Source of the DNA: Amphiscolops sp. MND2022
Taxonomy: Eukaryota
Assembly: GCA_964187785.1 (NCBI GenBank)
Contig: OZ076409.1
Location: 43,402,001-43,466,000 of the forward strand
Length of the DNA stretch: 64,000 nucleotides
Direction of reading: 5' to 3'
Position 1 is the first letter of the stretch; every line of letters begins with the position of its first letter. A program made the translations under genes and the position numbers. The notes under the pieces were generated by a model that searched no databases, had not been told where the DNA came from, and saw nothing but the letters and a program-made list of their open reading frames with translations. This document shows positions 9,641 to 29,900 of the stretch, piece after piece.

Positions 9641-9880
9641 AGTAGTAATAGCAGGGGGGGTTTAATGATGTTTTGGGCTCCCAACCGAAATTATTCTAAG
9701 TCAGAAACCTATCTCACTTTTAGGGCTCCCAACCGAAATTATTCTAAGACAGAAACCTATCTCACTTTTAGGGCTCCCGACCAAAATTATTCTAAGTCAG
9801 AAAGGTTAAAGTTCATTTTAACCATACCGAGCGAAATGTATGCCAATTGTCATGAATGTTTACTAATGCAAACTAATGAT
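9641..9880 (+). repeat. Polinton left TIR with internal 48-bp tandem repeats
   Basis: Reverse complement of 23711-23950 (4 mismatches seen). gggctccc unit starts at 9675, 9723 and 9771. Confidence 0.97.
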
Positions 9881-10185
9881 ATTAAACTATCGAGCAGACC
9901 GACTTATATGTATTTGAAACTTGAATTGAAAGAAATAGCTTCTTATTCATGCATTAATGCAGTGCAAAGAAATTCACTATAAAATTCTAACCTTTCGTCC
10001 TCTGACAGCAGCAGCAATGGGAATATAAATAAATTTCCGAAAATGAGACATTGATATATTTAGAAGATAATTCTGATTCCCGAAACTGAAAAAAAAACAG
10101 GGCCGGCAGTATCTAGATATCACAAACCTAGAAACTGTGCTTTCTACATGGAACTTTCCATTGGCATCTTCCAAAGGAATTTTCC

Positions 10186-11115
10186 ATGTTTACCGTTGAT
10201 GATACGTGTGATAAGAAAAATCGTCATTATAACTTGAAATCGTCTCCGGAACAGTTAACAAGCCTTACCACTAGGCGCGAAATGACTTCAGTGTTTCGCG
10301 AAATACCGAGTAATTATTGGCTGCTCTTGTTTTCAACGGAAGAATCCCAAATCTACAGTGATGTCTACGAGAAGGACAGCAACTCAAAATCATCAAGTCT
10401 TTCCAAATTGCTGGAAACACTCTCCAATTCTCACAAATGCCAATTCATTGGAAGAGTTCATACTAAAGAGGACTCCACTAATGGATCGCTGGACGAGTTT
10501 TGTGAAGCCATGCCTACAAATCATCATCATGTTCTCTTGTACCTCCCACAATCAACTAACGCAGAAACAATGTTGAAACAAACCATTTCACAAGTTTTGT
10601 CCAATGAACAATGGGCAAAGGTACGACTTCTCACAGTTTCGTATCCAGAAAACTTTCTGAAAACAGAGACGTCAACTTTTTGTCATAGATCTCTCATTGT
10701 AGAAGGGGAGAGAATGAAGAGTCTAATGACTCGGAAAACAACTGAAAGTTTGGGTTGTAGTTTCAACTGCGTTTGGGAACTTAACAGACACAATTCCTTG
10801 GGTGACTGTCCCGATAATGAAAATGCTTTATACATTTTCCAAAAGCTCGTGGAACTTGAAAAAAGTGATGCGCCTTTCAAGGATACTGTGATATCTTATA
10901 TTGAACTTTTACAACGAGGTATCGGACGACTTTTTCTATCAGAGCACAGTAGAATATTGGATATTGATCTGGGAGTCTCAAATGCTCAATGCATGTGCTT
11001 TGAATGTCTGAACCAACCTTTGCAACTCGACGAAGCTATCGACAACACATCATCAAGCTCTCAACTGTTTTCCCCTTATAATGAAGACACCATAATCGAT
11101 ACTTCATTTCTGTAA
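10186..11115 (+). CDS. Polinton ORF1, 309 aa, unknown function; possible HUH-fold (Rep-like) domain
   Basis: Intact ATG ORF inside the element. Motif pattern YWLLLFSTE ... GRVHTKED ... NHHHVLLYL and a C-terminal CxCxxC. Confidence 0.75.
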   Translation: MFTVDDTCDKKNRHYNLKSSPEQLTSLTTRREMTSVFREIPSNYWLLLFSTEESQIYSDVYEKDSNSKSSSLSKLLETLSNSHKCQFIGRVHTKEDSTNGSLDEFCEAMPTNHHHVLLYLPQSTNAETMLKQTISQVLSNEQWAKVRLLTVSYPENFLKTETSTFCHRSLIVEGERMKSLMTRKTTESLGCSFNCVWELNRHNSLGDCPDNENALYIFQKLVELEKSDAPFKDTVISYIELLQRGIGRLFLSEHSRILDIDLGVSNAQCMCFECLNQPLQLDEAIDNTSSSSQLFSPYNEDTIIDTSFL

Positions 11116-11210
11116 AATTTCAATTTGGAAACAGTTGGCTTGTTTTATAATTAATTTCAATTTGAAAACAGTTGGCTTGTTTTACAATTCAAACTTTCAG
11201 AGAAACTGTA

Positions 11211-11618
11211 ATGTTTTCTGCGAGACAAATTTGTGAAAATTTTGTGGCGGTTAACTACTGCTTTCCTAAAAACAGCACCACCAAAAACGCTTTCTTAGCA
11301 GTTTGTCGTTATATAGACGAGAATGTTGATTTGAGGGAAGTTAACCTTAAAGCACCTTTCGGAGGCAAGATAGGGCCAGGCGATAGTAAGTTGGATAATT
11401 ATCTAAAGTTTTCAAAAATTTTGAGGATGCATGCAATTTTCCATGATGCTTATGGGTACATACGCAGCTTCGAGGAAATTGGCCCAGGTTACGTCTACAC
11501 TCTCACAAAGGCTCAGTCTTTCCACAACAATATGCTACTAGGACATTTCTCAGGAATATCATATTGGTTATTCGTCAAATTGTTCCATCGAGAGCATTTC
11601 GATGCTTTTCCATTTTAA
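11211..11618 (+). CDS. Parvovirus-type phospholipase A2-like protein (PLA2X-like)
   Basis: GKIGPGDS resembles the YxGPG Ca-binding loop and is followed by HAIFHDAY (HD dyad). First ATG at 11211. Confidence 0.65.
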   Translation: MFSARQICENFVAVNYCFPKNSTTKNAFLAVCRYIDENVDLREVNLKAPFGGKIGPGDSKLDNYLKFSKILRMHAIFHDAYGYIRSFEEIGPGYVYTLTKAQSFHNNMLLGHFSGISYWLFVKLFHREHFDAFPF

Positions 11619-11703
11619 CAATCATTTGTACTTTGAATATTATTCCGTTCAGTTGCATCCTGAAGTGGAGATATATCAATTTGATTCAAAACTACGCTAG
11701 GTT

Positions 11704-12057
11704 ATGAGCGGCCCTGATTTGAGCCATACTAGTGGCTACTACAGTAACTGGTCGTTGAACAACCGAAGCGATCAAGAGGATCAAATCGATCACGGAAATT
11801 TATCGGTTCCGAACCTTGAAAGAATCATATTCGACCAAACAGACAACGAAAGACCACCCTACACTTTTTGTTGTTGTAATTCCCGAGTCGAAAGGTCGCT
11901 GGTGTTGGTCTTTTTACATTATTTCATACTTATTGCAGTTTTTACGTTCTGTATTCTTTTCCTAACTCTTTGTGAAAACGACAACAAAGTTTCCTCCGGG
12001 ATTCTAGCGATTCTATCAGCTTGCATAGGTCATATTTTACCTGGTCCAAAGTCATGA
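11704..12057 (+). CDS. Small two-TM membrane protein of the type found upstream of Polinton ATPases
   Basis: CCC motif, then two hydrophobic stretches ending ILSACIGHILPGP. The stop overlaps the ATPase start (ATGA). Confidence 0.75.
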   Translation: MSGPDLSHTSGYYSNWSLNNRSDQEDQIDHGNLSVPNLERIIFDQTDNERPPYTFCCCNSRVERSLVLVFLHYFILIAVFTFCILFLTLCENDNKVSSGILAILSACIGHILPGPKS

Positions 12058-12755
12058 ACAAGAGAATCAGTACAAATCCTCATTGTTTCATTTCTGTGGT
12101 GGGTCCAGCTGGTTCTGGCAAGACACGATTGATTGGAAGGATGATTTGCAACCAGGAAAAAATTTTTCGCCCTGTCTTTGACAAAATACTATACTTTTTT
12201 AAACATTACCAGGAACCGTATAGACAACTTGAAACAGAATGCCTTGCCAACAAAGTTGATCTGCAACTCATTCAAGGCTTGGAGTGGAATGCGGTCGAGC
12301 GAGGAGAAATCTTGAAGCAACGTACTCTCGTCGTTATAGACGACATGTATGACGAAGCTGCTAACAGCAAGGAGTTTTTGGACCTAGTGATCGCTGGCCG
12401 TCATCGCAACGTTCACCTGATGGTGTTACGGCACAATCTTTTCCAACAGTCCAAATACTCAAAGACGATTGATTTGAATGTGACTCAAATTGTTCTATTC
12501 AATAGTCCAAGAGATTCTGAACAAATTGGAATTTTGGGACGTCAACTGGGCGAGCGTTCTACTCTACTGAAGGTCTATAAAAGAGCGACTCAAGAAGCAT
12601 TTGGTCATTTACTGATAGATTTGGATGTGAGGAGCAGCAGGAACCTCAGATACTGCTCACATTGCTCTGGCGACGAACCATCCCATTTTTATTGCGCGAG
12701 AGACGAACTTTTCATCTCAATCAATGATGAATTTACAAAATTACTATACAGTTGA
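12054..12755 (+). CDS. FtsK/HerA (A32-like) genome-packaging ATPase
   Basis: Walker A GPAGSGKT, Walker B LVVIDD, GRHRN arginine motif and GHLLIDL. Confidence 0.95.
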   Translation: MNKRISTNPHCFISVVGPAGSGKTRLIGRMICNQEKIFRPVFDKILYFFKHYQEPYRQLETECLANKVDLQLIQGLEWNAVERGEILKQRTLVVIDDMYDEAANSKEFLDLVIAGRHRNVHLMVLRHNLFQQSKYSKTIDLNVTQIVLFNSPRDSEQIGILGRQLGERSTLLKVYKRATQEAFGHLLIDLDVRSSRNLRYCSHCSGDEPSHFYCARDELFISINDEFTKLLYS

Positions 12756-13068
12756 TTTATATCTAAAGTTTTCACCTACATTGAAAAAAATTTTCATTTT
12801 ACATTGTCCAGATAACATATTGAAGTTTTTCTGTGACTGTGTTTTCAACGTTGTAAAGGGGAAAGTCAAGCTAGACAAAAAGTTGCAAGAAAAAGCTGTT
12901 TTCCTGGCACGTGAGAAAGTGAATCTAGAGAAAATTTGTTCGAAACGCCGAGTTGCCTTGAAGCGAAAACGCCAAGTATTGGGCTCAGAGAGAGGTTTGC
13001 GTCTGTTGAAATTGATTTTGCCCTCGGTAGAAATTCATTTGAAAAGTTGCCATGGAATCGAACAGTAG
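12724..13068 (+). CDS. Small basic conserved Polinton protein with a C-terminal amphipathic helix
   Basis: CDCVFNVVKGKVKL...KRKRQVL...GLRLLKLILP pattern, typical of the ORF that follows Polinton ATPases. Confidence 0.7.
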   Translation: MMNLQNYYTVDLYLKFSPTLKKIFILHCPDNILKFFCDCVFNVVKGKVKLDKKLQEKAVFLAREKVNLEKICSKRRVALKRKRQVLGSERGLRLLKLILPSVEIHLKSCHGIEQ

Positions 13069-13750
13069 CCTGCGTGACCTAATCTTAATCACTCACGAAG
13101 AGTACATTTCTCTTAAAAGACAAGAGAAAACACCAGACGCACGTGAGAAGCAAAAACAGCATTTACTTTCAAAGTTTGCCGAAGCTACTCAAACTAATTT
13201 TGAACCCATTGAAGAAAACCAGTTCAAAACTATCGATACAGCCAAAGAATTACCTGAAGACTCATTAGTTGCCCAGTTGAACTTGAATTCACGATACCAT
13301 TCGGGAGACTCGAGCACTTCGAACACCGTAGAGACAAAACAATCGTACAAAAACCCATCTGATCAAGTTTTGTCAAATTTACTACAATCTGGCGTGACCG
13401 GTGGAAAAGTTGAAAGGTCGAGACAAATTTTAAAAAAGATTGAAGATTGCGAACGAACTACGATAGATGAAACAAATCAAACCATCAATTTAGATCAACA
13501 AGACACGGGAGTAAGTGTTGTAGAGTTTCTCTCAGCATTGCAAGTCAATACGAAACAATTGCCAAAGAAATTTCTCACCCTGGTTGAAGTTCTCAGAATT
13601 CCACAATTTCTGCTGGCAAACACCTACGCGAGACAGACAAGCAATCAAAATCAGCATCAAATTCGCTTAGCGAGCGGAGCGTCTCCCTACAAAAGGCTAA
13701 AACTCGACACAGAACAGGGTAGCAGCAGTCAGTGGTTGACAAATTTTTAG
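13052..13750 (+). CDS. Polinton hypothetical protein, 232 aa
   Basis: Intact ORF tightly packed between neighbours. N-terminal LILITHEEYISL and C-terminal W motif, as in Polinton pre-integrase ORFs. Confidence 0.75.
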   Translation: MESNSSLRDLILITHEEYISLKRQEKTPDAREKQKQHLLSKFAEATQTNFEPIEENQFKTIDTAKELPEDSLVAQLNLNSRYHSGDSSTSNTVETKQSYKNPSDQVLSNLLQSGVTGGKVERSRQILKKIEDCERTTIDETNQTINLDQQDTGVSVVEFLSALQVNTKQLPKKFLTLVEVLRIPQFLLANTYARQTSNQNQHQIRLASGASPYKRLKLDTEQGSSSQWLTNF

Positions 13751-13751
13751 A

Positions 13752-14909
13752 ATGAAACGGTGGTTTTGTGGATCTTGTAAAACGCCTCTGGGTAAAGGAT
13801 CCAAAATATCTCCCTCACTTTGGTGTCATGTCTGCGGTTGGGTGCATTTCAAATGCAGCGGTCTCGAGAACAGCAAGGAATGCAACGACAACTTTTTGTG
13901 CTCTAAGTGTGATCGAAGCAGAATTTTACTCAGTGACGAAACTGACCGTGATTATGCTACTTCCTTCACGAAAATTCACGAAAGTTATACAAATCCTAGG
14001 AGTAAAGCAGCATTTGGAAGCAGACGCAACTTGGTAACAACTTCCCAATGCTCTTCCAAAAATGTAGATCGATACCTCAATTCGAGCGAAACGTACACAA
14101 AATTCAAACTAACCAGGAAACGTTTCTTGCGATTGAAAGTTGTCAGTTATAGGTTGAATGAAATTTGGTCAGTTGATTTGGCCGATATGCAAAAACTCGC
14201 AGCTAACAACAGCGGAATTAGATACCTGTTTGTGGCAGTAGACGCCCTAAGCCGTTATCTCTGGGTGGAACCCCTCAAAGTTAAAACATCACAAGCTTGT
14301 AAAGAAGCTCTAAGGAGGATCATTGTCAAAAACGGAAAGCCTCCGGTGCCAAAAATTTGCAGTGCAACGCATCAGCCTGAGAAGATTTGGGTAGACAAGG
14401 GCCGCGAATTTTCTGGAGAGTTTGCCAGTTTTTGTCGGTCAAAAGATATTGTAATTTATTCCACCAAAAGCGAAACAAAGTCTGCACTAGCGGAAAGAAA
14501 TATTCGATCGCTCAAATCATTGATCTTCAAGTACATGCACGAGCATGACCGTAACACTTACATTGATGAAATTGATCAGTTTGTTTCCATCATTAACCGT
14601 CGCGTGAACCGCATGACAAAGTTGGCTCCCGCTTCAGTCTCCAAAAAAGACGTGCCCTACTTAGTATCGCTTTGTCACACCAATGTTCTGCGGCAACCAA
14701 AATTCAGAATTGGCGATCAAGTTCGAATTCGACGCAAAATTGATACATTTCATCGAGGCTATAAGATACAATTCACTGAAGAGTTATTCACTGTAACTTC
14801 GATTCCCACTTGCAACCCTCCCACTTACACTGTCAAGGATAGAAATAACGAAATTATACAGGGCAAGTTTTACGAACCCGAACTCGTGAAGTTTGTAGTA
14901 CCATCCTAG
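13752..14909 (+). CDS. Retroviral-like (rve) DDE integrase with an N-terminal PHD-like finger and no C-terminal chromodomain
   Basis: Catalytic motifs WSVDLADM, IWVDKGREF and LAERNIRSLK. C-terminal FRIGDQVR...GKFYEPEL. C4HC3 pattern at aa 6-53. Confidence 0.95.
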   Translation: MKRWFCGSCKTPLGKGSKISPSLWCHVCGWVHFKCSGLENSKECNDNFLCSKCDRSRILLSDETDRDYATSFTKIHESYTNPRSKAAFGSRRNLVTTSQCSSKNVDRYLNSSETYTKFKLTRKRFLRLKVVSYRLNEIWSVDLADMQKLAANNSGIRYLFVAVDALSRYLWVEPLKVKTSQACKEALRRIIVKNGKPPVPKICSATHQPEKIWVDKGREFSGEFASFCRSKDIVIYSTKSETKSALAERNIRSLKSLIFKYMHEHDRNTYIDEIDQFVSIINRRVNRMTKLAPASVSKKDVPYLVSLCHTNVLRQPKFRIGDQVRIRRKIDTFHRGYKIQFTEELFTVTSIPTCNPPTYTVKDRNNEIIQGKFYEPELVKFVVPS

Positions 14910-14928
14910 TCTGAAACCAATCGGAGAC

Positions 14929-15906
14929 ATGGCCAGAACAAGCAACCGAGGCGGTCAAGATTTTACGATGAACCTAGTATCGAACGCGTCCATGACTACT
15001 TTTCCCGGAAACTCTTTGTCAAACTTCACGACGCTGTTACCAACAACAATGTCCTTGCCTGGCGATTGGCAAGTGGCACTGGTTGAAATTGCTTGGCCGG
15101 CAATGGTCCAAAACGTTACTGTTGGAGAGTTTACAGTCTCAAAAAAAGTGCCGGCTTTGCCAGTTGAAAAATATCCTAGGCATCACAAACACGGTTTGAT
15201 CTCGATGACAGTCCCCTCTGCATTAACCCAAATACCAAATTACAGTGAACCTGTAACGCTTTGTATAAAGCCCGGTTGTTACCCATCGGTCGACGCAATA
15301 ATGAAAGCCATCATGAAAGCTGCTCTGGGCAAGAAAGATGGCCAATTGAACGCAACTCCTCGGACGAATGACTCTTTTATGTCTTGGAAAATTGATAGTG
15401 TAACTAGACGATTACATGTCAAGTCGAGCGCAATTGCTGAAAACGAAGCATTCAAAATTATGGCAGTCTCGGACGATTTGAAAAACATTTTGGGCACCGA
15501 TGTAATCATCGATTGTCAATCACAAATTCGTCACGAAACTGAAGCTTCTGACCAAATTGCTTCAGGAATTGCCAAAGTTGTGAAACAAGTCGGACGGTGG
15601 CCCATCGATCTGAATGCCGGTAGTCACACAATGTTTCTCTATTGTGATCTTGTACAAAACGAGACGCTGGGCGACACGCAGACGGCACTCCTGAGGTCCA
15701 TTCCCCTCAAGAGTATAACTTTGGCGCAAACTATGGGTGAAGTGAATCACAAGAGCTTCACAAACTTGCAGTGGAAGCGAATCGTCAAACCTCAATTTCA
15801 GTCAATCAGTCTAACCCTCGCCAATGAGATGGGTCAAAAAATGCCCTTTTTGAGCTGCGGACGCACCAACATTACTTTAGCATTCCGACCGGTGCCGCAA
15901 TATTAA
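14929..15906 (+). CDS. Minor capsid protein (penton-like)
   Basis: N-terminal FTMNLVSNASMTTFPGNSLSNFTTLLP...WQVALVEI; C-terminal MFLYCDLVQ..LGDTQTALLRSI...ITLAFR. Confidence 0.9.
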   Translation: MARTSNRGGQDFTMNLVSNASMTTFPGNSLSNFTTLLPTTMSLPGDWQVALVEIAWPAMVQNVTVGEFTVSKKVPALPVEKYPRHHKHGLISMTVPSALTQIPNYSEPVTLCIKPGCYPSVDAIMKAIMKAALGKKDGQLNATPRTNDSFMSWKIDSVTRRLHVKSSAIAENEAFKIMAVSDDLKNILGTDVIIDCQSQIRHETEASDQIASGIAKVVKQVGRWPIDLNAGSHTMFLYCDLVQNETLGDTQTALLRSIPLKSITLAQTMGEVNHKSFTNLQWKRIVKPQFQSISLTLANEMGQKMPFLSCGRTNITLAFRPVPQY

Positions 15907-15978
15907 TCGGCGTCATTTGTTCTCCAACTTGTGGGAGGTTCAGTTGGTGGTCAATTTCAAAATTGGCTTGCTTTCACA

Positions 15979-16488
15979 ATGGATGCTCACTATGATTCGC
16001 AAATTAAATCAGTCGTCGCTCACACCAATTACAGTGGACCTGCAAGACAGATGGGATCTGGAGGTGGGCTGGGAGCTTTTGCCGTCCGTATGGGACGTGT
16101 GGCCATTCCTCTAGTAAGGAAATACGTTTTGCCTGTAGCAAGACAAGTTGGCAAAAACTTGCTTGAGACTGCAATTCCCGAAATTGGAGATGTCCTGACA
16201 GGCAAAAAGAAGCCCAATCGGAAACTTTTGGCCAGTGTCGCGAAAAAGACTGCTGTAAAAACAATGAGTAAAAACTTGCCGGCGGGCGTCGCACTTCGCC
16301 CGGGCGGCGGCAGCGAGCGGAAACCGGGGGCGGCTCGACGGGTGACGAATGGCAGCGTCGGAGGCGGCGAACGGCCAGTGTCAGCATTGGTCAACAGGAA
16401 ACGAAACAGTTCGACCAGCATTTCGCGAAAAACAGCCGCCAAAAGAAGTCGGTCCAACATTTTGTCTGAAATTCAATATTCCAATTAA
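15979..16488 (+). CDS. Basic virion core/membrane-lytic protein (cupiennin-like N-terminal helix after a QxGxG protease site)
   Basis: YSGPARQMGSGGGLGAFAVRMGRVAIPLVRK...VGKNLL followed by an Arg/Lys-rich tail. Positioned between the penton and MCP genes. Confidence 0.75.
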   Translation: MDAHYDSQIKSVVAHTNYSGPARQMGSGGGLGAFAVRMGRVAIPLVRKYVLPVARQVGKNLLETAIPEIGDVLTGKKKPNRKLLASVAKKTAVKTMSKNLPAGVALRPGGGSERKPGAARRVTNGSVGGGERPVSALVNRKRNSSTSISRKTAAKRSRSNILSEIQYSN

Positions 16489-16500
16489 AAAATCGTCAAG

Positions 16501-17848
16501 CTGGCGTCCGTCAACAATGTATTTGTCGGCAGTGCAAGCGAGATTGCGAGGCCCGTGACACACAGTGCGTTGGACTTTTTCGAGAAACCAGGAGTTATGA
16601 TCAACTATGAAGGAGCCTACGATCAAGAAGTTTTTCCACACGTGGGTTGCCGTGGACCTCAATTGGACTTTTTTGTTGCTGCGGAAGCGAAAAACCTAAT
16701 CGACTTGAATCGCATCATTCTTTGCGTTGAAGTAGCAATTTATCTTGAAGATGGCAAGACAAAAGCCAAACCTGGTGATGTTGACGTTGTTTTCTCCAAC
16801 AACACTCTTCACACTCTCTTCTCACATGCGGAACTTTACCTAAATGAAAAATTGATTTCTCACAGCAATAATTGTTACTTGCATTCAGCATTTGTAGAGA
16901 CTGAACTTTCAACCGACACGGAAAGCAAAGACTCATGGGCCGAATGCCAAGGATATCATTATTTGGCCAAGTCGAGTGGAAAAGATCAACAGTTTAACAA
17001 GCTCGCTGCCAGCTTTGCAGAAAAAAAAGAGTGCAAAGTTCAGCTCTGCGGTGCTCTCCACCTTGACTTTTTGGACTGTGAGAAATTTTTGCTTCCAAAT
17101 GTAACTCTACATGTGCGTCTATATCGATCTCCGAACAACACTGTTCTCCATCTAAAAGGTACTGACGACGATGCCAAGAACCTTGACGGTAAAATACTTC
17201 CAGTTGTTGAAAAAGCCTCTCTCTTTGTTCGAAAAGTGGTCGTGACTGACAGTGTCAAATTGTCAATCGAGAGGGCATTATTGAAAAGTGAGGCAATATA
17301 TCCCTATATTGAAAGCTTGAACAAAAGTTTTATCATTCAAGCTGGACAAAATTGTTTCATAAAGGAGAATATTTTTGGGACAGAGCCCATTCGGCGTCTA
17401 ACTTTGTGTATGGTGAAAAATTCTCTTTTCCGGAGTACTCCACTCAATGAAACGCCATTCTCTTATCAAAAGTTCAACTTGCAGCGAGTAGAAATTCAGC
17501 GGGGAAATGGGGTTCCGCTCGCAGGAACTCCACTAGACACCACAAACAATGTGAGGTTATATTACAATACGATAACAGCACTCGGCTTTAAGGAAAAAAG
17601 TAACGGAATCAAACTTGAGGATTACGAGGACAATCATTTTTTCCTTGTCTTTGACCTGACTTCAACAGAGGAGGCTAGCAAAAACTACACTCTTTCCCGA
17701 ACTCACCGGTTCCAGCCTAACCTTAAAGTTGTACTTTGAAAAAGCTCTGGACGATGCAATCGAGTTATTTTTGATTGGGGAACGGTTCAGTCAAGTCATT
17801 ATAGATTCAGCAAGAAATATAAAGAAAAACAGACCATATGATGGATAA
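16501..17848 (+). CDS. Major capsid protein (double jelly-roll); CTG at the apparent start, +1 frameshift near 17685
   Basis: SALDFF, NNTLHTLFSHAELYLN, LHLDFLDCEKFLLPNV and FLVFDLT motifs. Removing one A from the A-run at ~17680 continues the frame TLFPELTGSSLTLKLYF...IDSARNI to TAA at 17846-17848. Confidence 0.9.
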
Positions 17849-18372
17849 CGCAACTCTAAAACACATGATCCTTCGCAACTCCACACTGAGCGTAGCCTTT
17901 GCGGGAATTTGGTCAGCAGACAACTTCAACTTGCAACCAGTCACAACTGAAACGACCACAAACTTTCTCGCAAGCGAACGATTGGTTTGGTTTCAAATTG
18001 TAAATACTTCCCCGCGAAACTCACATGGATCGCACTGGTTGCTTCTCGGCGCTACTATTGCGCAGGGACAAAAGAAAATGCAGGTGTTCGTCTGGGACTG
18101 TTTGGGTCAACCAGTGTCTGTCTACACAATGTTTTTCAATCGCCTGAATCAATTGTATGGAAAAACGGGATATCGACAAATTGCACTCAAACTTCAAAAT
18201 GCTAGTTCCAATATGTGTGGTCTCTATTGTCTCTTTTTGATTCACTATATAGCAAAAAAAACCCTACGAATTGTCTCAAATCGATGAAAAATTGAAATTA
18301 TGTAGTGAAATTGAAATAATCCGTTTCATAAATGATAAATACAATACATTATTCAGATATACTGTGTTTTGA
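17838..18372 (+). CDS. Adenain-like cysteine maturation protease; frameshift in the A-run at ~18253-18261
   Basis: Catalytic pattern GSHWL / VWDCLG / LQ...NMCGLYC. The alternate frame continues PYELSQIDEK...RYTVF to TGA at 18372. AATAAA at 18378. Confidence 0.9.
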
Positions 18373-18417
18373 ATACAAATAAACTTTCATAGCAACCGTC
18401 TTTTCATTTTCATAAGA

Positions 18418-21400
18418 CTAGGCCAGGCCATGCGTCGCGTCGTTTTCATCGCTACTGGAAGAATAGTCTACAATTTGTATTTTACGACGACTTTGACTGT
18501 TCAATTTTCTCGAGGGAAGTTGCTCATTCGTTTGAATACAATCATCACCACTCGACTCTTGGGCCTCGTAGTTGATAAACGGGCAGTTGAACTTGTCTTG
18601 GTTTTCATCAGCCTCAAGGTCTACAGACAAATTGTCCCAGTCAACAATATCCGAAAGCTCATCAACGTCGGGTATTGAAGTTTGTTGATAAAGACCAGGA
18701 TCGGGGGCAGCTGAAAGAAAACCAAGATCAGACTGGCATGCTAAAAGTGCAGGCTCTTGAATAAATGTAGCTTTGGAATCGATACTACTACTCACTGAAA
18801 CTCGCCGATTGCCATGCTCTTTTCAGGGGACTGCTGTGACTCGGTAAAGAAGCCGACGATTCATCTGATGAACCACTACTACTACTACTACTTTCGTGAC
18901 TGTCACTTGGGGAGGAAAAGCTAGTGTTGCTACTACTGCTGCTGCTGCTTGAGCTCCTCAAACTCTCACAGTCGGTAGATTCGTCATTTGTGGGTTCAAC
19001 GGAACCTACAAGAAAGTTTTGAAAGTTTTGCACTTGGGCAAATCTTTTAATGAAATTGAATAAACTAACCTCGGAGAGATGAAGGTATTTTATAATGACC
19101 ATAGGCGAGAGAATTGATTCCATCATCCATTATGTACCGCTTGTCGTCAAACGAGCTGAGAGCTATTTTGTCGACAGAGTTCACAACAATTTGATGATTG
19201 AAGGAACGAAGTTGAGTCATTCTTTTGGTGAAGTTCTTTTTCGATAGAAGGCATTGTTTGAAAAGATCGTGATGCAGAGTCTTTTTAACCGTTTTGGAGA
19301 CGCCTTTGGCGCTCTGCTTCTTACCTCCAACAAAATCTATACTATAAAGTTTGGACCTCAGACATACTACCTCGCGAAGGATTTTGCCCTGCAGTTCATC
19401 TGTCATTGTCAAGGGGACCTTTTTGTTTGTAGGATCATACAAAAAATGTTCACGTGGATAATCTGAAAGGTCCAGTAGGTGCTTGAAACATGCCATGTCT
19501 TGGTACAAGTCATTTGTCTCGATACAGTATAGGAGGGAATCAGTATCTTTGTATGCCAGTTTCAATCGGGCTGCAGTATACCGAGGAATCATCACTTCGT
19601 AGTGGAATTTGTAGAGAGAAAGTTTTGATAGATCTAGAATAGCAGCACCAACCGGAGTTGGTTTGTCCCACACCACACAAGCCATTTTGAAGGAAACACT
19701 CACAAGTTTTTCGTTGATGACCTGAAAAGACTTGAAAGATGCTTTCTCAACAAAAGATTCCGCCTGCTTTGCACTTGAAACAAACTTTAAGTTGCTGCGC
19801 TTCCGTAGATTCTCCATGGTCTTTCCAAAGCAAGCATTACTCATCAGTTTGAAAAAAGCCTTCTCGAAATCATTGTCTGCTTGTTTCCGCATTACTGTGT
19901 TTTTTTCTATGTAGACACCGAGCCACTTGCTCTGTTTGAATTCGCAAACACGATGCACTCTGTCTACAACGAGACCGTGCTTAACGTAGAATTTCAAATT
20001 TTCATAGTGACATACATAGTTTTTCTTATCGAAGAGAGTCTCTATCAGTTTGGCTGTTTTGCTCGGCTTAACACCGAAGCTTTCAGCATAGTCAGATAGC
20101 CAAGATTGTTGAATTATCTTTTTCTCGGGTGCCAGCGGGAGGCCATTGTGAGCATCGTGTAAATGCTTGGGATATAGAAAGTCAACTTCAACAAAGTAAC
20201 CCAGAGGTGAATCAGTTGGAGTATCAAGCAATTCCTGTAGAGTGATAGACGTGTTCCATTTGTAATCTCCGCTTGGCATCAATTGTTGCATTGTACCCGC
20301 GTAAAGGGATGTTACATCGAAAAAGGCACCAAAAGTAGTAGTTTCACTGGAAGCAAAACTCGGTAATAGAGGATTGTTAGCCGTAAAGTGACGAATTTCA
20401 CCAATTCCATTGACTCCCCCACGTATACCACGTTCGAAAAACAATAGTTTATCAATATCATCCAGCAAACCCAGCTTGGCTTCAGTTGAAATGAGCATAG
20501 CGTCCCAACTGAGGTTAGGGGCTGAAAAGAAGTGTGCCGGATCGAGTTTGTACACCTTGATGCAAACCCTTCTAAAGTTTTCAAAAATATCAGCAAGAAG
20601 CAAAACGTCGGTTTGTAAGTAAACATCATGATACTCGCCGAGTGTTTTACAAGAGAATGCGTTGTAGATAGAAACAGCTTCATCAAACTCTTCATTAGTG
20701 ATATCGATTGATCCCGTCAACGAGTTTTTCCAGTCGTTACCATATGGTGGCAAAGGTGCTTCAAACTTGCTGAAGCTATCCAAAAAACCGTAGGGAAAAT
20801 AACCCTTTTTAATGAGTTTTTTGAATAACCCCTCCGAAATGTTGGAGAAGTAGCCACGAAGGTGAACGAAATCCTTAGACTGCAACGTTTTTGCCAAAGC
20901 GTCAAGACTTTGAGGCATAAATTGTAAGCTGTCGAGAAATCTGAGCGAATGATATAGTGACACTATTCGATTACGTTTGTCCTTATAACTCCCAACGGGT
21001 ACGGCAATACTAACAGAAGTGTAGGTTTCATCAGTCTTGGATATTGCTGAAAGTTTTTCACCAGGTTTCAGCTGTAGATTTTTTAAAATGTGGTGCGAAT
21101 CATATCGAGAGAAATTGTGAAAGAAAATTGGGAGGAAGTTTGATGATCTTGCTCTGAGGTTGCATTTTGAATGTGCCACCCCAAAGATTTCACCAGTCAA
21201 ATGGCAATGATGAATGACCCGAGTTGACTTTTCAGCATTCTTGCCACAAATACAACAGATTTTTGAATCTCCAGATAAATAATTTTCCCGCTCCGATTTT
21301 GAAATTCGGAGCCAGCGGAAAGTTTGCTTCTCATGATAACACCACAGTGTCCATTCACGCAGAACAGAAAGTAATTTGTCGATACAATTCTGGCCGCGAT

Positions 21401-22910
21401 AGAAGGAGCTTTTCACAACACCATCAGCTGAAAAGAAATATTTGAAGCCCAAAAAAAAATTTTAAAAACGACAAAACTGAACCACTCACCTCTCATGTCA
21501 ATTAGAACAGCTCCGTAACTGGCAGGGTACTGTCGCTCAATTTCACGCGTTTTGGATCTTGCGTCGGAGCCCGATTCCGACTGGCACATTGATCGCCTCC
21601 AAATCAGCGTATACCGTAAAAGGACATCTTTGTGTTTTTTGCCAATTCACAAATTCAACAACTCGGCCTTGCCCGGGCATCACAATTTCCAGAGGGACAT
21701 AAGTTTCACAAAACTTCAAGTGCCTTTGCATGTTTTGTTTTGCTATCGGCTGGTAACAGTTGCGGCAAAAACGGCTCTTCGGGCCCGCTTCTCGTTTTTT
21801 GGGAGATCGTGATAAATGATGAATAATGTTTGAGAAATTTTTTATCAGACAATAGTGACTGCGCTTTCCATTGACAAGTCTTAAAAGATCCACTCGGCGT
21901 CTTGACTTCTTGTTCTTGCTGCTGTAAATGTTGATGAGTTTGTTGTCCTCAAGTTGGTAAACGTTGATCGAGCACTTATTTCTCATTTCAAATGAGCGAA
22001 TTCCCGAAAGCGGCATTGGCATTTGCTTGGGGTCGAAATTCAGTTTTTCAATGTTTTTCATATGACTCTTCAGTCTGAATGGAGAACCAACAAAAGAAAA
22101 TAACGCAGCTGCAATGCAATATAAAAAACAGAAGCTATCTTTTTTATTGACGATGTTCAATAAACTTTTTTTGAGATTTCGAAGGATTGGAGGAGTCTCA
22201 ATGTATGTGCCAGGAGGTGAGCTGGCAATCTGAGCTGTTTTAATTTCCAATCGGGAGAGTCTATCGACAACCCAGCCTGAACCGCCAGTGGCAAACATAT
22301 TCAGCTGAGACATTAGCTGATCGACATGACCCAAGAATTCATCCATGGTCATTTCAACTGACACCCTTGCCATATTCGAATTGAAGTAAGCTTCAGTTGT
22401 TTCATCTAGTAAAGGTTTCATGAGGCGAACGGCGATTGAGAAGCCAATCCTAACGCTTCTCGCAACTTGCAATTTTGAATTAATAAAGGCCAGTAATTCG
22501 TTTTTGAACGACACCAGGCAATTGAACGGGTCAATGAACCCCGAATCTTCCATTTTCATTCGATGGATTTGAAAGCGAGAATTGAACGCCTGAGTGGTAA
22601 ACTCTACAGTTGCTGACGCTGAGTGGGTAATTGGTAGAGGTTGGTGCAAATGGACTGTTTCCTCATGTTCGTTCAGAGTTGTCAGTGAACCAAAAATAGT
22701 TGGACAAGCAGGACATCGATGGCTTTCATTCATATTATGCTGAGAGCGTAAATGCCTCAGCAAATTTTTAGTTTGAGTGAATGCTACAGAGCAGTGGCCA
22801 CACTGAAAGACTTTGGTTGCGTTATTGCTATTGGGGTGTTTCGTTCTGAGATGATTAGTGAGGGCCCGTTGTGATACAAGAATTTTTCCACATTCACGGC
22901 ATGAATACAT
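18418..22910 (-). CDS. polB: Protein-primed family B DNA polymerase; predicted exons 22910-21490, 21427-19070, 19005-18796, 18710-18418, with one +1 frameshift near 21580
   Basis: Three N-terminal C2H2 fingers, ExoI YADLEA, CxxC..HCHLTG..AHxxCN Zn insert, ExoII HNFSRYD, motif A FDVTSLY, motif B KLMSNACFGK, motif C YKDTDS. GT-AG introns join the ORFs in frame. Confidence 0.9.
18711..18795 (-). other. Predicted intron 3 of polB (85 nt, phase 1)
   Basis: TTCA|GTGAGT...TTTTCTTTCAG|CTGCC; in frame with the acidic ORF ending at 18418. Confidence 0.7.
19006..19069 (-). other. Predicted intron 2 of polB (64 nt, phase 1); removes the TAG at 19065-19067
   Basis: CCGAG|GTTAGT...CTTTCTTGTAG|GTTCC; in frame with the Ser-rich ORF. 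Confidence 0.7.
21428..21489 (-). other. Predicted intron 1 of polB (62 nt, phase 1)
   Basis: AGAG|GTGAGT...TTTCTTTTCAG|CTGAT; splicing gives ...AVLIDMR-A-DGVVKSSFYRG. Confidence 0.8.
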
Positions 22911-23710
22911 TTTAGACGAATGCCGTGTTTAGAATATTTGTCATCATAGTCTCGTTCCAATCTTTCTATGCACATGAAATTTCGAAATTTGAATTACACA
23001 AAGACGCACATTTGATTTTGAACTAAAGCAATAGTTACCAGAGCCGCATATGCGGTAAAGGAGTCGGATTAGGTCTTTTTCCTTCTGACTCGCTCGAATA
23101 CCAGTCATACGAATTTGATAAAACTGCACACAAAGGATCATGATATGGTGTAGAATGACTCTACAAAATTTCGTTCGAATCGTATGGACAGTTTTTGAGA
23201 AAATCGAAAAATGGCTGTTTTTGGCTATGTTTCTCACATTCCAGTCATACAATTTTGACGCCATTGCGCAGACAGGGGCCCCTTTCGGTGTAGAATGATT
23301 GTGCAAAATTTCATGAAAATCATATGGACAGTTTTTGAGAAATTTGAAATTTTCATAAAAGGTCGGGAGAAAAAACGATCCGATTGCATAAGTAGTCGAA
23401 AATTTTTCCGACTCCTAAAAATTTTCATCTGGAATGAGACTATGATCGATGTTTTTTTCCATGGAATTTTACCCTGTTTTTCTAAGTTTCGGAATTCAGG
23501 AATAAAAGGGTTTTCGTTGTTCAATCAGAAATATCGTGTTTCCTTGAATTCTTAATCAATGTTATAATTCTATTCAATTTTGTTCTTTTGGCTACTTTCT
23601 ATGATAACTTTCGTGAATTGTCAGGAAATGGCAAAATTAGTTGATAAAATCAATAAAAGTTGAATCTCAGTTACCATTATTGAAATGTATTGAATTCAGA
23701 ATGCACCTTC

Positions 23711-23950
23711 ATCATTAGTTTGCATTAGTAAACATTCATGACAATTGGCATACATTCCGCTCAGTATGGTTATAATGAACTTTAACCTTTCTGACTTAGA
23801 ATAATTTCGGTCGGGAGCCCTAAAAGTGAGATAGGTTTCTGTCTTAGAATAATTTCGGTTGGGAGCCCTAAAAGTGAGATAGGTTTCTGACTTAGAATAA
23901 TTTCGGTTGGGAGCCCAAAACATCATTAAACCCCCCCTGCTATTACTACT
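23711..23950 (-). repeat. Polinton right TIR
   Basis: Reverse complement of 9641-9880, followed by TSD GAAGTT. Confidence 0.97.
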
Positions 23951-26900
23951 GAAGTTAATATGTGACTATCAGAAAAAGCGGAAATAATCTAGGAAACTAT
24001 CATTTGAAGCAAAATGTTTTTTGGCGAAACGAAAAACCATGAAAATCGAAACCAAACAGTAGACGTTTTTATTCAGCCTGGCACCTGGGCAATTTTTCGA
24101 AAAATTTTCCAAACCATCAAGTATTTAAACCAAAATTGTAGGACTAACAAAAAAGTTGATTGGAAATTTTTTTTTTATTTTATTCAAATGTACTAGGTCA
24201 AGTCAGACAAAACATCTTGAAACGTCAAACATTCTTATAATGCGCTTTTATGATAAGCAAAAGTTTCAACACTTTGGAATAAAACAGTCATCAAGGCCGA
24301 GGATAATCCTCAAACCGAACGCTTAACCAAAGTCTGTGCTTTAGATGAATGAAAATGTTGTAAAAGTTTAAAACAAAGTGTAATGGAATGATTTGAATTC
24401 GACTTTTTGCCAGCTCAACAGCAATTACATGAAGGTTGAATCCCCCGTGACAATTACCGATGAATGTTTTCTTTCTTCACGCATTTCACGCCATCTTCTT
24501 TTAGAAGGACGATTTTTGCCACCACACGGCAAGTAATACGAGGTATCGAAAACTGACGTCTTGCATGAGTTGAATTTCGCCTCGGTCGTGTGATGAAGAT
24601 AAACATGCTTAAACTTGTTTGACGAAAAAGACCTACGGACAATTCGTTTTATATTGAGATTCGTGAGGCCGTGTGATTTGTGGAAGGATCTCCAAAATAA
24701 CTGTCTCTGCGTCAGATCTTTGCAAATAGCATTAGGCAACAACACCATAACTCTTTGTCTCCTGTAGTTGTGACTTAACTGTGTCAAAAGTAGATAAAGA
24801 GTGTGAGTATGAGATCGTGCCAAAGTTTTACCATGGCATCATTATTGAAATGATTTTTCTTCAGAACAGATATAACTTTTTTCTTCGACTTTTCGCGGTT
24901 GAAAGATAAGCCGGTATCGCTATTATACACAGGGAATTGTATGAATCCATTGGAAGATCAATAATATATCGGCTCAGCGAAATATTAAACTTCATAGACA
25001 TTCTAATTAACTGAAAAAAACTGTGCAAGTCATGAGACTAGAATATTTTGGAAACCCTCAGATCTATATTGTTCGAGGTATCGAATTCAACAAGCAATAG
25101 AACAGCTGATTTGAAAAGTTGTTTTTCAACCCGTTATCATCCGAGGATGATCGCAGATCATAAGGGAAAAATAGAGAATCGGTAAACATGCAGATTGTAG
25201 GTAAATCAAATGAAATAACGTTTCCAGGTTCTTTAACGACTGACTTCAAACTTGGGAAATTGTGTCAAATGCATAAATTTTGAGCGGTGCGCACTAGAAA
25301 TATACATGTATAATAAATATCCCGATTATTATATTTTATGCATGTATCCAGTGGCCTAGAAGGTGTTTTTATTCAAATGTACTAGGTCAAGTCAGACAAA
25401 AAATCTTGAAACGTCAAACATTCCTTAGAATGCACATTTACGATAACCAAGAGTTCCAACACTTTGGAATAAAATAGTCATCAAGGCCGAGGAAAATCCT
25501 CAGACCGAACGCTAAACCAAAGTCTGTGCTTTAGGTGATTGAAAATGTTGTAAAAGTTTAAAACAAAATGTAATGGAATGATTTGAATTCGACTTTTTGC
25601 CAGCTCAACAGCAATTACATGGAAGGTTGAATCCCCCGTGACAATTACCGATGAATGTTTTCTTTCTTCACGCATTTCACGCCATCTTCTTTTAGAAGGA
25701 CGATTTTTGCCACCACACGGCAAGTAATACGAGGTATCCAAAACTGACGTCTTGCATGAGTTGAATTTCGCCTCGGTCGTTTGATGAAGATGAACATGCT
25801 TAAACTTGTTTGACGAAAAAGACCTACGGACAATTCGTTTTATATTGAGGTTCGTGAGGCCGTGTGATTTGTGGAAGGATTTCCGAAAGAACTCTCTCTG
25901 CGTCAGATCTTTGCAAATAGCATTAGGCAACAACACCATAACTCATTGCCTCCTGTTGTTGTGACATAATTGCTGACACAGAACTTGCAGTGCTCTCATG
26001 AACTGTGTCAAAAGTAGATAAAGAGTGTGAGTATGAGATCGTGCCAAAGTTTTACCATGGCATCATTGTTGAAATATTTTTCTTCAGAACAGATATAACA
26101 TTTTTCTTCGACTTTTCGCGGTTGAAACATAAGCCGGAATCGCTATTATACACAGGGAATTGTATGAATCCATTGGAAGATCAATAATATCGGCTCAGCG
26201 ATAAGGCAGCGAGAATATTAAACTTCACAGACATTCTAATTAACTGAAAAAAAGTGTGCAAGTCATGAGACTAGAATATTTTAGAAACCCTCAGATCTAT
26301 ATTGTTCGAGGTATCGAATTCAACAAGCAATAGAACAGTTGATTTGAAAAGTTTTTTTCAACCCGTTATCATCCGAGGGTGATCGCAGACCATAAGGTAA
26401 AAAATAGAGAATCGGTAAACATGCAGATTGCAGGTAAATCAAGTGAAATGACGTTTCCAGGTTCTTTAACGACATCAAACTTGGGAAATTGTGTCAAATG
26501 CATAAATTTTGAGCGGTACGTACTAGGAATATACATGTAGAATAAATATCCCGATTATTATATTTTATACATGTATCCAGTGGCCTAGAATGTGTTGTTT
26601 TCTTGTGTTGAATTTTCTGATAATCGAAAAACGAAAGGAGATGGCTTTTGCCTTTTTATTACTTCTGCGATAGCAGGAACAATATTAAAATCTCAACAGT
26701 TCAATTTTTTTAGTTCAATTTTTGTCGTGATATCGAGTGCCTACTGAAAATTTTAGACGAATTGTTCGGCAGAGAGTGGTAAGCGTGATAATCAAATTTT
26801 TTAAGCTGCCGACAACATTTCGTTTTTCGTGCGATGGAACGAGCGATTAGTGATTATGCATTTGTACGCCGAATTCATCGAGGTGAAGCGAGCCAATGTT

Positions 26901-29900
26901 CCTAATTTTGCTTTCGTACGCCGAGTTATTGAGATAAAGCGAACGAATGGTAATTATTCGTTCGTCGAGAATTTCGCTTGCATTCAATACTTCGTCTACG
27001 CTTAGTAGTTGTTTTCTTTAGTCCGAGAAGAATTAAAGGTGGTGTGAACTGGTAGAGTGATTAATTGTTCGCTATATAATTGATTAAGATATGCTTCTTT
27101 TATTAAACGTGAAAGCCTAAAAGCAGAAATCATACTGTGCCCGCAGGGGCCTTTTTCAAAAACACGAAAAGGTTTACCAGATTCCATTGGGTTCAGAGAA
27201 AAACAGTCCATGGAGCCCTCCAGGAGCGATGTGGTTCTGTGAACATGGCCCCAGGCGAAAGCTTCTGTGTTGTGCCTTCGAAGCTCTCTCCACTATATTT
27301 GTGGAGCTAGAATCCATCACTTATTCTTCACGAACTCTATATCCAAAAAATGCTGAATTTCGATGCATTCAGTTTTTTGTGAATTCCTAATGTTCCAGCA
27401 AAAAGCTTTGAAGTGGGGTCACCCGAGCTGCCGACAACCTCATCATTTTGAATGAGATCAATTGTGACACATGGTCGCTAAGTTTCAAAACAGAACCCGG
27501 GCATATGACACCACTTCGTCAACAGAACCCGGGCATATGACACCACTTCGTCCACATTATGCGTACCCCAGGGCATCATCATGTGAAGCAAAATATTGTC
27601 ACTCGATCTCCAAAAACCCACCTGAGGGACCAGCCGCGTTTGGTCTCAGAAGGACGTTGCTTCCTAGGCTGACAACTTCTGCACCTCCAAAGATTTTTTC
27701 AACAATCAGTCAGTCGCGTCTGCTGTACCCCATTCGTTCGTTGTGGCGCGCTGGGGCCCATTGGTCTCTAAACAAACTACAACTGTCTAGGAACAGTCGA
27801 GCGAAAGAAAACAATCAACGAGAATCAATTGATGTTACCTTGAGGGTTGAACAAACAAAGAAAATGTACCTGAACGCAAAACAAAAAAGTTGCACAGTGA
27901 CTGAAAATCCCATAGACTTCTAGATCGCAAAAAAGTGTCGGAATTTAAGAAGAGGTACCTCCCTAGTAAAACGCAATTCACTTCGGATATAACGTCAAAA
28001 GTTCGGATATTGTGTTTTTCTTAAAAAGTAGATAAAGAGTGTGAGTATGAGATCGTGCCAAAGTTTTACCATGGCATCATTGTTGAAATATTTTTCTTCA
28101 GAACAGATATAACATTTTTCTTCGACTTTTCGCGGTTGAAACATAAGCCGGAATCGCTATTATACACAGGGATTTGTATGAATCCATTGGAAGATCAATA
28201 ATATCGGCTCAGCGATAAAGCAGCGAGAAAATAAAACTTCACAGACATTCTAATTAACTGAAAAAAAGTGTGCAAGTCCTGAGACTAGAATATTTTAGAA
28301 ACCCTCAGATCTATATTGTTCGAGGTATCGAATTCAACAAGCAATAGAACAGTTGATTTGAAAAGTTTTTTTCAACCCGTATCATTCGAGGGTGATCGCA
28401 GACCATAAGGTAAAAAATAGAGAATCGGTAAACATGCAGATTGCAGGTAAATCAAGTGAAATGACGTTTCCAGGTTCTTTAACGACATCAAACTTGGGAA
28501 ATTGTGTCAAATGCATAAATTTTGAGCGGTACGTACTAGGAATATACATGTAGAATAAATATCCCGATTATTATATTTTATACATGTATCCAGTGGCCTA
28601 GAATGTGTTGTTTTCTTGTGTTGAATTTTCTGATAATCGAAAAACGAGAGGAGATGGCTTTTGCCTTTTTATTACTTCTGCGATAGCAGAAACAATATTA
28701 AAATCTCAACAGTTCAATTTTTTTAGTTCAATTTTTGTCGTGATATCGAGTGCCTACTGAAAATTTTAGACGAATTGTTCGGCAGAGAGTGGTAAGCGTG
28801 ATAATCAAATTTCTTAAGCTGCCGACAACATTTCGTTTTTCGTGCGATGGAACCTTCAAAGTCATCTGCAACACAGTTTCTGCATATTGTCTAAGTTATA
28901 GCATTCCTGTTCCCACAAAGCTCGCAAAATGTATTGCGATTTGTGCAACGTTCTGAGTGACGGGACAATTGACCACATCGTTGGCAGTTTTGTAGGCATT
29001 TTTCGGAGGCATTTCTGAATGTGAAAATGAACTGGCAAATATATAGAAGTTAATATGTGACTATCAGAAAAAGCGGAAATAATCTAGGAAACTATCATTT
29101 GAAGCAAAATGTTTTTTGGCGAAACGAAAAACCATGAAAATCGAAACCAAACAGTAGACGTTTTTATTCAGCCTGGCACCTGGGCAATTTTTCGAAAAAT
29201 TTTCCAAACCATCAAGTATTTAAACCAAAATTGTAGGACTAACAAAAAAGTTGATTGGAAAATTTTTTTTTATTTTATTCAAATGTACTAGGTCAAGTCA
29301 GACAAAACATCTTGAAACGTCAAACATTCTTATAATGCGCTTTTATGATACGCAAAAGTTTCAACACTTTGGAATAAAACAGTCATCAAGGCCGAGGATA
29401 ATCTTCAAACCGAACGCTTAACCAAAGTCTGTGCTTTAGATGAATGAAAATGTTGTAAAAGTTTAAAACAAAGTGTAATGGAATGATTTGAATTCGACTT
29501 TTTGCCAGCTCAACAGCAATTACATGAAGGTTGAATCCCCCGTGACAATTACCGATGAATGTTTTCTTTCTTCACGTATTTCACGCCATCTTCTTTTAGA
29601 AGGACGATTTTTGCCACCACACGGCAAGTAATACGAGGTATCCAAAACTGACGTCTTGCATGAGTTGAATTTCGCCTCGGTCGTGTGATGAAGATGAACA
29701 TGCTTAAACTTGTTTGACGAAAAAGACCTACGGACAATTCGTTTTATATTGAGGTTCGTGAGGCCGTGTGATTTGTGGAAGGATCTCCAAAATAACTGTC
29801 TCTGCGTCAGATCTTTGCAAATAGCATTAGGCAACAACACCATAACTCTTTGTCTCCTGTAGTTGTGACTTAACTGTGTCAAAAGTAGATAAAGAGTGTG

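What the first reader, a model, noticed from the sequence alone, without database searches (positions are those of the whole stretch)
18418..22910. Polinton PolB gene apparently split by three spliceosomal introns, adding a Ser-rich/acidic C-terminal tail
Seen: four separate minus-strand ORFs are joined in frame by three short (62, 64, 85 nt) phase-1 introns with strong donors (GTGAGT, GTTAGT, GTGAGT) and pyrimidine-rich acceptors (TTTCAG, TTGTAG, TTTCAG). The internal exons (2358 and 210 nt) are exact multiples of 3. Introns 2 and 3 each remove a stop codon lying right at the donor. The spliced product is ~1426 aa after fixing one +1 frameshift near 21580. Knowledge: Polinton genes are usually annotated as intronless. 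Inference: this element uses host splicing, and intron-2 retention versus splicing could give short and long PolB isoforms, as adenoviruses do.
Basis: partly seen in the sequence, partly recalled or inferred. Interest (0 to 1): 0.88.

Follow-up and report, generated by a model that had tools for sequence, protein, structure and literature searches.

The report
Spliced Polinton polymerase with conserved tail
The DNA polymerase gene of a recently mobile virus-like Polinton element is cut by three ordinary host-type introns that related elements inherited at the same places, two of them inside an old acidic tail of the enzyme, although such genes are usually described as intron-free.

Summary
The three introns (21489-21428, 19069-19006, 18795-18711; phase 1, GT-AG) lie where stated, in a 14.3-kb Polinton with a 6-bp target duplication and an empty sister site. 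No RNA run was listed, so splicing is inferred, but strongly. Intron 1 sits at one codon position in 22 of 41 loci, is cleanly absent in 16, and marks one clade. Splice sites for introns 2-3 picked by score alone give an open in-frame exon 3 in 34 of 40 loci from about ten families (shuffles: under 1%). The tail is not created by splicing: 17 public relatives encode polymerase end and the same tail motifs in one unbroken frame, and removing intron 3 restores an aromatic residue they all carry (36 of 40 loci; 0 of 40 unspliced). So introns were gained stepwise in an older gene. The short/long isoform switch is unsupported. The tail is disordered in a relative's model; an NLS and a histone-binding role are guesses. 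The frame break near 21580 is decay of this copy. This scan noted intron-split Polinton polymerases before in other genomes; I found none in print for animals.

The parts
9641..23950 (.). Polinton/Maverick element, 14,310 bp, ends 5'-AG...CT-3'
9635..9640 (+). left copy of 6-bp target site duplication
23951..23956 (+). right copy of 6-bp target site duplication
28852..29105 (+). empty sister site in the next unit of a 5.1-kb tandem duplication: same flanks, one copy of the 6-mer
9641..9880 (+). left terminal inverted repeat
   Evidence: 251-nt arms, 96%
23711..23950 (-). right terminal inverted repeat
21490..22910 (-). pPolB exon 1: C2H2 fingers, presumed terminal-protein region, vOTU Cys/His motifs, Exo I; broken in this copy near 21580
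   Evidence: domain order from 10.1101/2024.03.18.585575 (passages)
21428..21489 (-). intron 1, 62 nt, phase 1, between Exo I and the HNH insertion; youngest intron
19070..21427 (-). pPolB exon 2: HNH (endonuclease VII) insertion, Exo II/III, Pol A/B/C
   Evidence: (PF03175 E 1.8e-21, PF02945 E 2e-05)
19006..19069 (-). intron 2, 64 nt, phase 1, just after the polymerase end motif
18796..19005 (-). exon 3: Ser-rich linker (33 Ser of 69 codons), ends on the aromatic residue of the first tail motif
18711..18795 (-). intron 3, 85 nt, phase 1, inside the aromatic-xx-PDPG motif
18418..18710 (-). exon 4: acidic tail with DPG, DWD, PFIxxEA motifs, basic cluster, stop
11976..12755 (+). A32-like packaging ATPase, unsplit
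13740..14909 (+). rve integrase, unsplit
14899..15906 (+). probable minor capsid protein (by position and size only)
   Evidence: label is inference
15907..16488 (+). basic, Gly-rich ORF, probable core protein
   Evidence: label recalled, untested
16489..17739 (+). double jelly-roll major capsid protein; broken in this copy near 17700
   Evidence: (feature scores 0.97-0.98, lead)
17823..18287 (+). adenain-like protease, ORF shorter than in sister copies

Best explanation
A young, integrating Polinton family whose protein-primed DNA polymerase gene carries three U2-type introns. The gene is transcribed in the host nucleus and spliced constitutively into one protein of about 1,430 residues (zinc fingers, terminal protein, vOTU, exonuclease with HNH, polymerase, disordered acidic tail). 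The element copies itself DNA to DNA, so introns are inherited. Shown: positions, conservation, frame and selection. Inferred: the tail predates the introns; introns 2 and 3 were fixed in the ancestor of the families sampled in this genome; intron 1 was gained once later. Guessed: the tail is a docking region of short motifs whose basic cluster brings the polymerase into the nucleus (about 50%) and whose aromatic-acidic motifs bind a host nuclear protein, perhaps histones H3-H4 (about 20%).
For: Intron 1: in 22 of 41 loci the extra 62-88 nt are exactly GT..AG at the same codon position, in 16 the spacing is that of the spliced form with no intron, 3 had no anchor; the intron-bearing rows are one clade, 100/99 (10 of 28 rows). 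Introns 2-3: 34 of 40 loci pass the score-only test, shuffles 0.1-0.7%; acceptor 8 nt before DPG in 38 of 40. Between nine families intron interiors are at shuffle level (0.51 vs 0.49; 0.49 vs 0.48) while the start of exon 4 is above it (0.60 vs 0.51). Exon 3 length is a multiple of 3 in 26 of 30 rows; shared changes in a sister subfamily are 8 synonymous to 3 non-synonymous in the spliced frame (p 2e-4) against 0:11 and 1:10 in the other frames. P0001 and 16 of 62 profile hits hold polymerase end and tail in one frame; one lies on a 437-kb contig. All 17 have W/F/Y four residues before DPG; splicing gives F/Y there in 36 of 40 loci, unspliced DNA in 0 of 40. All 17 have PFIxxEA-type motif and a basic cluster. 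Tail pLDDT under 50 in the model of P0078. Mobility: empty site with identical flanks; three sister copies 99.6-99.8% alike with different flanks.
Against: No transcript evidence. 6 of 40 loci fail the score-only test and 4 of 40 lack the aromatic. In exon 4 the synonymous excess is not significant (5:7, p 0.07). Exon 3 DNA is at shuffle level between families (0.52 vs 0.50). Branch-point-like words are found in only some introns. The branch that puts P0001/P0002 outside the families of this genome is weak (82/78), so loss of introns in P0001, or a cDNA origin of its contigs, is open. The tail motif matches the Spt5 histone motif only at F and E, not at V (against PMC8886531).
Confidence: 0.92

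Rival explanations
1. Regulated splicing: retention of intron 2 or 3 (or skipping of the symmetric exons) makes tail-less and tailed polymerases for different stages or tissues, like the P-element third intron (recalled).
For: All three introns are phase 1, so exons 2 and 3 can be skipped in frame; many PolBs end right after the polymerase end motif, so a tail-less form is a plausible enzyme; most loci stop within 30 residues if intron 2 is kept; introns were seen only in the polymerase gene among the genes compared.
Against: Tail is constitutive in 17 relatives; retention products differ widely and intron 2 is stop-free in 2 loci; no conserved poly(A) hexamer in intron 2 (1 of 11); the stop follows from the donor consensus.
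Confidence: 0.12
2. Exons 3-4 are a separate small gene or a spliced product with another 5' exon, and the polymerase ends at 19065.
For: 46 of 62 profile hits are short ORFs without polymerase; exon 4 lies in a 134-codon open frame.
Against: 28 of 35 scored short hits have residues that fit a phase-1 acceptor at the same place, against 0 of 17 unsplit ones (one of the 28 is mis-anchored, and 12 hits are at least 80% like exon 4 of this genome's families); no conserved start codon; fused in 17 relatives; intron-2 donor is conserved in phase 1 in 39 of 40 loci.
Confidence: 0.04
3. The gaps are decay, assembly errors or frameshift sites, not introns.
For: This copy does carry true breaks near 21580 and 17700; T-runs vary in length.
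Against: Same positions in families 58-77% identical in the polymerase; GT/AG vary less than interiors; exact collinearity with intronless families; a decayed non-coding copy of the tail in another repeat has stops and in some copies has lost the acceptor.
Confidence: 0.02

Closest known systems
Vertebrate and nematode Mavericks/Polintons (PMC8097293, passages; bioRxiv 10.1101/2022.07.12.499685, passages)
   Same: TIRs, 6-bp target duplication, pPolB, integrase, ATPase, protease, capsid in two converging modules.
   Different: Those papers state that core genes are intronless (introns only in nematode cargo genes); here pPolB has three inherited introns and a motif-bearing tail.
Adintovirus/Polinton pPolB with vOTU and HNH insertion (PMC8502044; 10.1101/2023.08.22.554363; 10.1101/2024.03.18.585575; passages)
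   Same: vOTU Cys/His, HNH insertion in the exonuclease region, PF03175 core.
   Different: No introns or C-terminal tail appeared in the passages found; Alpha/Beta or pPolB1/pPolB2 class was not tested against their references.
Introners in dinoflagellate Polinton-like viruses (PMC12166617, abstract and passages)
   Same: Spliceosomal introns inside integrated Polinton-type elements.
   Different: There they are mobile introners, mostly gained after integration; here interiors are fully diverged, positions are shared across families and the introns travel with a spreading element.
Histone-binding acidic tails of Spt5, Mcm2 and Pol alpha (PMC8886531, PMC6166128; passages)
   Same: Acidic disordered tail with conserved aromatic residues on a nucleic-acid motor; F-x-x-x-E spacing as in Spt5 F180/E184.
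   Different: Third invariant residue (V187) is not matched; no homology shown; resemblance only.

Membership tests
Polinton/Maverick | terminal inverted repeats with AG...CT ends | tested here: met
   (end rule recalled)
Polinton/Maverick | 6-bp target site duplication | tested here: met
   feature stated in PMC8097293
Polinton/Maverick | protein-primed family B polymerase | tested here: met
   PF03175, motifs, model of relative P0078 matches phi29 polymerase best, E 7e-15
Polinton/Maverick | retroviral-type integrase | tested here: met
   PF00665 E 1.2e-09
Polinton/Maverick | packaging ATPase and adenain-like protease | tested here: met
   PF04665 E 4.3e-07, PF00770 E 5.5e-05
Polinton/Maverick | double jelly-roll major capsid protein | tested here: inconclusive
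   Atlas hits 0.97-0.98 to clusters with PF21738 on 14-16% of members, recognition just under the mark; no Pfam or PDB sequence hit
Polinton/Maverick | minor capsid protein | not tested
   assigned by position only
'Intact vertebrate Maverick' screen of PMC8097293 (a described trait, not the family definition) | all conserved ORFs intronless | tested here: not met
   pPolB split; the other core genes compared are unsplit. Hence filed as a variant.
U2-type spliceosomal intron | GT-AG ends, GTRAGT-like donor, T-rich YAG acceptor | tested here: met
U2-type spliceosomal intron | branch point | tested here: inconclusive
   YTRAY word near the acceptor in 5 of 11 intron-2 and 5 of 11 intron-3 sequences
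U2-type spliceosomal intron | removed from the mRNA | not testable with these tools
   no RNA holder listed
Self-splicing group I/II intron | structured ribozyme core | tested here: not met
   62-85 nt; no Rfam match in 9600-24000
Introner | near-identical copies in unrelated host genes | not tested
   interiors are at shuffle level between families, so any origin signal is erased
Spt5N-type H3-H4-binding motif | invariant F, E and V at 0, +4, +7 | tested here: not met
   F 51 and E 51 of 52, but E in 43 of 52 at +7

The most novel reading that the evidence does not exclude
A broad clade of Polinton polymerases carries an undescribed host-docking tail that acts like the histone-chaperone tails of Spt5, Mcm2 or Pol alpha, letting the viral polymerase handle nucleosomes, and this lineage placed introns in that tail so that host splicing switches between a nuclear, chromatin-competent enzyme and a tail-less one.
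Probability: 0.1. Interest if true: 0.88.

Novelty: new variant of a known kind. Interest (0 to 1): 0.62.

Why it matters
It gives sequence evidence that an actively spreading animal Polinton makes its replicase through the host nuclear spliceosome, which bears on where and how these elements are expressed and ties them to hosts that can splice these short introns. One genome holds a dated series (none, two, three introns at known codon positions), a rare clean case of intron gain in a virus-like element. Screens that demand intronless ORFs would score such elements as dead and cut off the tail. The tail itself is a conserved motif set with no Pfam family, shared by polymerases only about 40% alike, and is directly testable.

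Tried and rejected
RNA: no RNA holder listed, so no reads were laid. Viral contigs: no pattern match. Metagenome loci L101-L180 (80 kept of 119, 30-47% identity) gave no tblastn hit to the tail. Phage records: no match to exon 4. Pfam: nothing above cut-off for exons 3 and 4 or the tails of P0001 and P0208. Atlas: exon 4 hits all under 0.8, one to SPT6 acidic region, lead only. Complex of exon 4 with the host's H3-H4 tetramer: no answer, score 0.01, alignment not used; it says nothing either way. Motif word search in papers returned only unrelated text. PMC1450207 and PMC11426020 are not held; Repbase entries could not be searched and may already annotate exons in some Polintons. One search used the wrong frame for the exon-2 control; one search corrects it (7:1 in frame). 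A 323-column tree with short fragments places the unsplit tailed proteins on a separate deep branch but 11 of its 29 rows fill under half of the columns. Trees used only loci whose core lay in one alignment segment (17 of 40). Host intron size was not measured: one host gene (PGK) is intronless, RNA polymerase genes are split over kilobases. Rejected: a fourth intron or programmed shift near 21580 (27 of 30 rows lack the length change); nine further exon-4 hits proved to be a decayed fragment in another repeat.
Full report
Setting. The finding lies in a 14,310-bp element (9641-23950) with inverted ends of about 250 nt, AG...CT termini and a 6-bp target duplication. The next unit of a 5.1-kb tandem duplication holds the empty site, with flanks identical over 200 nt and one copy of the 6-mer. 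Three sister copies are 99.6-99.8% alike at the right end and have different flanks. Pfam gives an A32 ATPase, rve integrase, adenain protease and pPolB; the capsid gene is a feature-level match. The genome is 1.07 Gb and its PGK scores best to mammalian structures (629 bits against 559 for the next group), so the host is animal-like.

Observation. Among the 30 best rows of two own-genome searches, GT and AG are kept in 30 of 30 at introns 2 and 3 and in 29 and 30 of 30 at intron 1. Intron 1 is a multiple of three in 5 of 30 rows. The break near 21580 is not seen as a length change in 27 of 30 rows; 16 of 30 rows read exon 1 open and in phase 1. The window copy is also broken in the capsid gene near 17700.

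Test across families. A protein search listed 150 of 151 matches, with open frames clustering near 800 and near 1,277 codons. I fetched 40 of them, chosen to cover the identity classes. At junction 1, 22 of 41 loci (window included) have 62-88 extra bases that are exactly GT..AG at the same codon position; 16 have the spliced spacing with no intron; 3 lacked an anchor. On a maximum-likelihood tree of the polymerase core (17 unbroken loci, the window, 10 public proteins) the intron-1 rows form one clade, 100/99, nested among families without it: one gain. For introns 2 and 3 I picked donors and the intron-2 acceptor by score alone, with the intron-3 acceptor fixed 8 nt before DPG; 34 of 40 loci give phase 1, an exon 3 divisible by three and no stop. 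Ten family representatives all pass, against 0.1-0.7% of shuffles. Intron interiors and exon 3 are at shuffle-level DNA identity between families, the polymerase end and the start of exon 4 are not. Within the window's family, changes shared by a subfamily are mostly synonymous in the predicted frame of exon 3 (8:3, p 2e-4; other frames 0:11 and 1:10) and less clearly in exon 4 (5:7, p 0.07).

The tail. P0001 (59% identical, 1 of 75 long homologues with the tail motif) encodes the polymerase and an acidic tail matching exon 4 (E 5e-7 pairwise) in one frame. A profile of exon 4 from nine families finds 62 proteins; 16 carry the polymerase end motif upstream in the same frame, one on a 437-kb contig. 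Their polymerase parts are 33-51% identical to the window's (12 compared), as distant as tail-less PolBs, so the tail is old. All 17 unsplit proteins have W, F or Y four residues before DPG. In this genome that position is the last whole codon of exon 3, and it is F or Y in 36 of 40 loci, while unspliced DNA gives none in 40. Intron 3 therefore interrupts a conserved motif, and splicing is needed to rebuild it. The motifs are aromatic-xx-PDPG, D-W/F-D and C/N-PFIxxEAxE (52 of 62 hits), followed by a basic cluster in 17 of 17 unsplit proteins and, weaker, in 10 of 11 loci here. In the AlphaFold model of P0078 the core matches phi29 polymerase and the tail is below pLDDT 50.

How it works. Shown: gene anatomy, inheritance of intron positions, selection on the spliced frame, recent insertion. 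Inferred: nuclear Pol II transcription, constitutive splicing, DNA-to-DNA copying that keeps introns; gain of introns 2 and 3 before, and intron 1 after, the split of the families sampled. The order at the base is soft: the branch excluding P0001 and P0002 has 82/78 and their DNA was not seen. Guessed: the basic cluster is a nuclear import signal, useful if vOTU cuts off the N-terminal part as proposed in 10.1101/2024.03.18.585575 (passages); the aromatic-acidic motifs dock on a host protein. Histones are one candidate by likeness to Spt5, Mcm2 and Pol alpha tails (passages), with only two of three Spt5 residues matched.

Isoforms. A phase-1 GTTAG donor puts a stop in frame by itself. Unspliced products vary from 11 to 117 residues after the end motif, intron 2 is stop-free in two loci, and a poly(A)-like hexamer is in intron 2 in 1 of 11. 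Nothing favours a regulated switch, though a tail-less polymerase is plausible and all exons are symmetric.

What is known. PMC8097293 (passages) reports no introns in intact vertebrate Mavericks and cites Kapitonov and Jurka 2006 as agreeing; 10.1101/2022.07.12.499685 (passages) calls nematode core genes intronless and finds introns in cargo genes. PMC12166617 (abstract, passages) finds introners in dinoflagellate elements, mostly gained after integration; PMC12220804 (passages) finds group I introns in cryptophyte elements. Searches (listings) and passages showed no inherited spliceosomal intron in an animal Polinton polymerase and no account of the tail. Two key papers and Repbase were not available, and supplements of preprints could not be seen. 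Earlier notes of this scan describe intron-split Polinton polymerases in other genomes (seven notes, untested here); three describe spliced 5' leaders, which made me look at the gene starts: an ATG lies next to the first finger in most of the ten loci shown, and I saw no clear leader here. None was found for this genome or this tail.

Verdict. Real, a new variant of a known kind. Introns 0.92; regulated isoforms 0.12; interest 0.62.

Noticed in passing
L183 (G000:C11:32315000-32324999): An element whose polymerase is about 65% identical to the window's carries a capsid/integrase module about 75-95% identical to it, while other families are 35-85%: likely module exchange between families, as described generally in 10.64898/2026.10.13.758929 (passages).
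   Followed up: partly
L200-L204, L210-L213: A separate repeat family with arrays of about 84-bp units carries a decayed copy of exon 3, intron 3 and exon 4 from a sister Polinton family and, in 6 of 9 loci, a protease fragment, with no polymerase.
   Followed up: partly
P0002 cluster: Polymerase and Ser-rich linker in one frame, then ends that differ between members: fits intron 3 present and intron 2 absent; DNA not seen.
   Followed up: partly
clusters of P0130, P0150, P0164: Many members are same-length C-terminal polymerase ORFs on 5-18 kb contigs: may be last exons of genes split at other positions.
   Followed up: no
L183, L185, L186: The basic core-protein ORF changes frame near residue 100 of the window's ORF in three different families: decay, or a conserved shift.
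   Followed up: no
window:23098-23349: A roughly 110-nt unit duplicated at 75% identity between the TIR and the polymerase start, shared by sister copies; this stretch was not matched in a sister family.
   Followed up: partly
window:23951-35147: 5.1-kb tandem duplication at 99.4% identity; the Polinton sits in its first unit.
   Followed up: yes
window:1-4200: Three 1.84-kb tandem units with Tc1/mariner-like transposase pieces (label by eye).
   Followed up: no
window:56903-63769: LTR retrotransposon remains on the minus strand (zinc knuckle, protease, RT, RNase H, integrase) with a 2.3-kb internal duplication.
   Followed up: no
window:37288-37818: ORF matching MVB12 (PF10240, E 1.4e-10), probably a host exon.
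   Followed up: no
L187 (G000:C5): The only PGK match in the genome is one 418-codon open frame, i.e. intronless.
   Followed up: no
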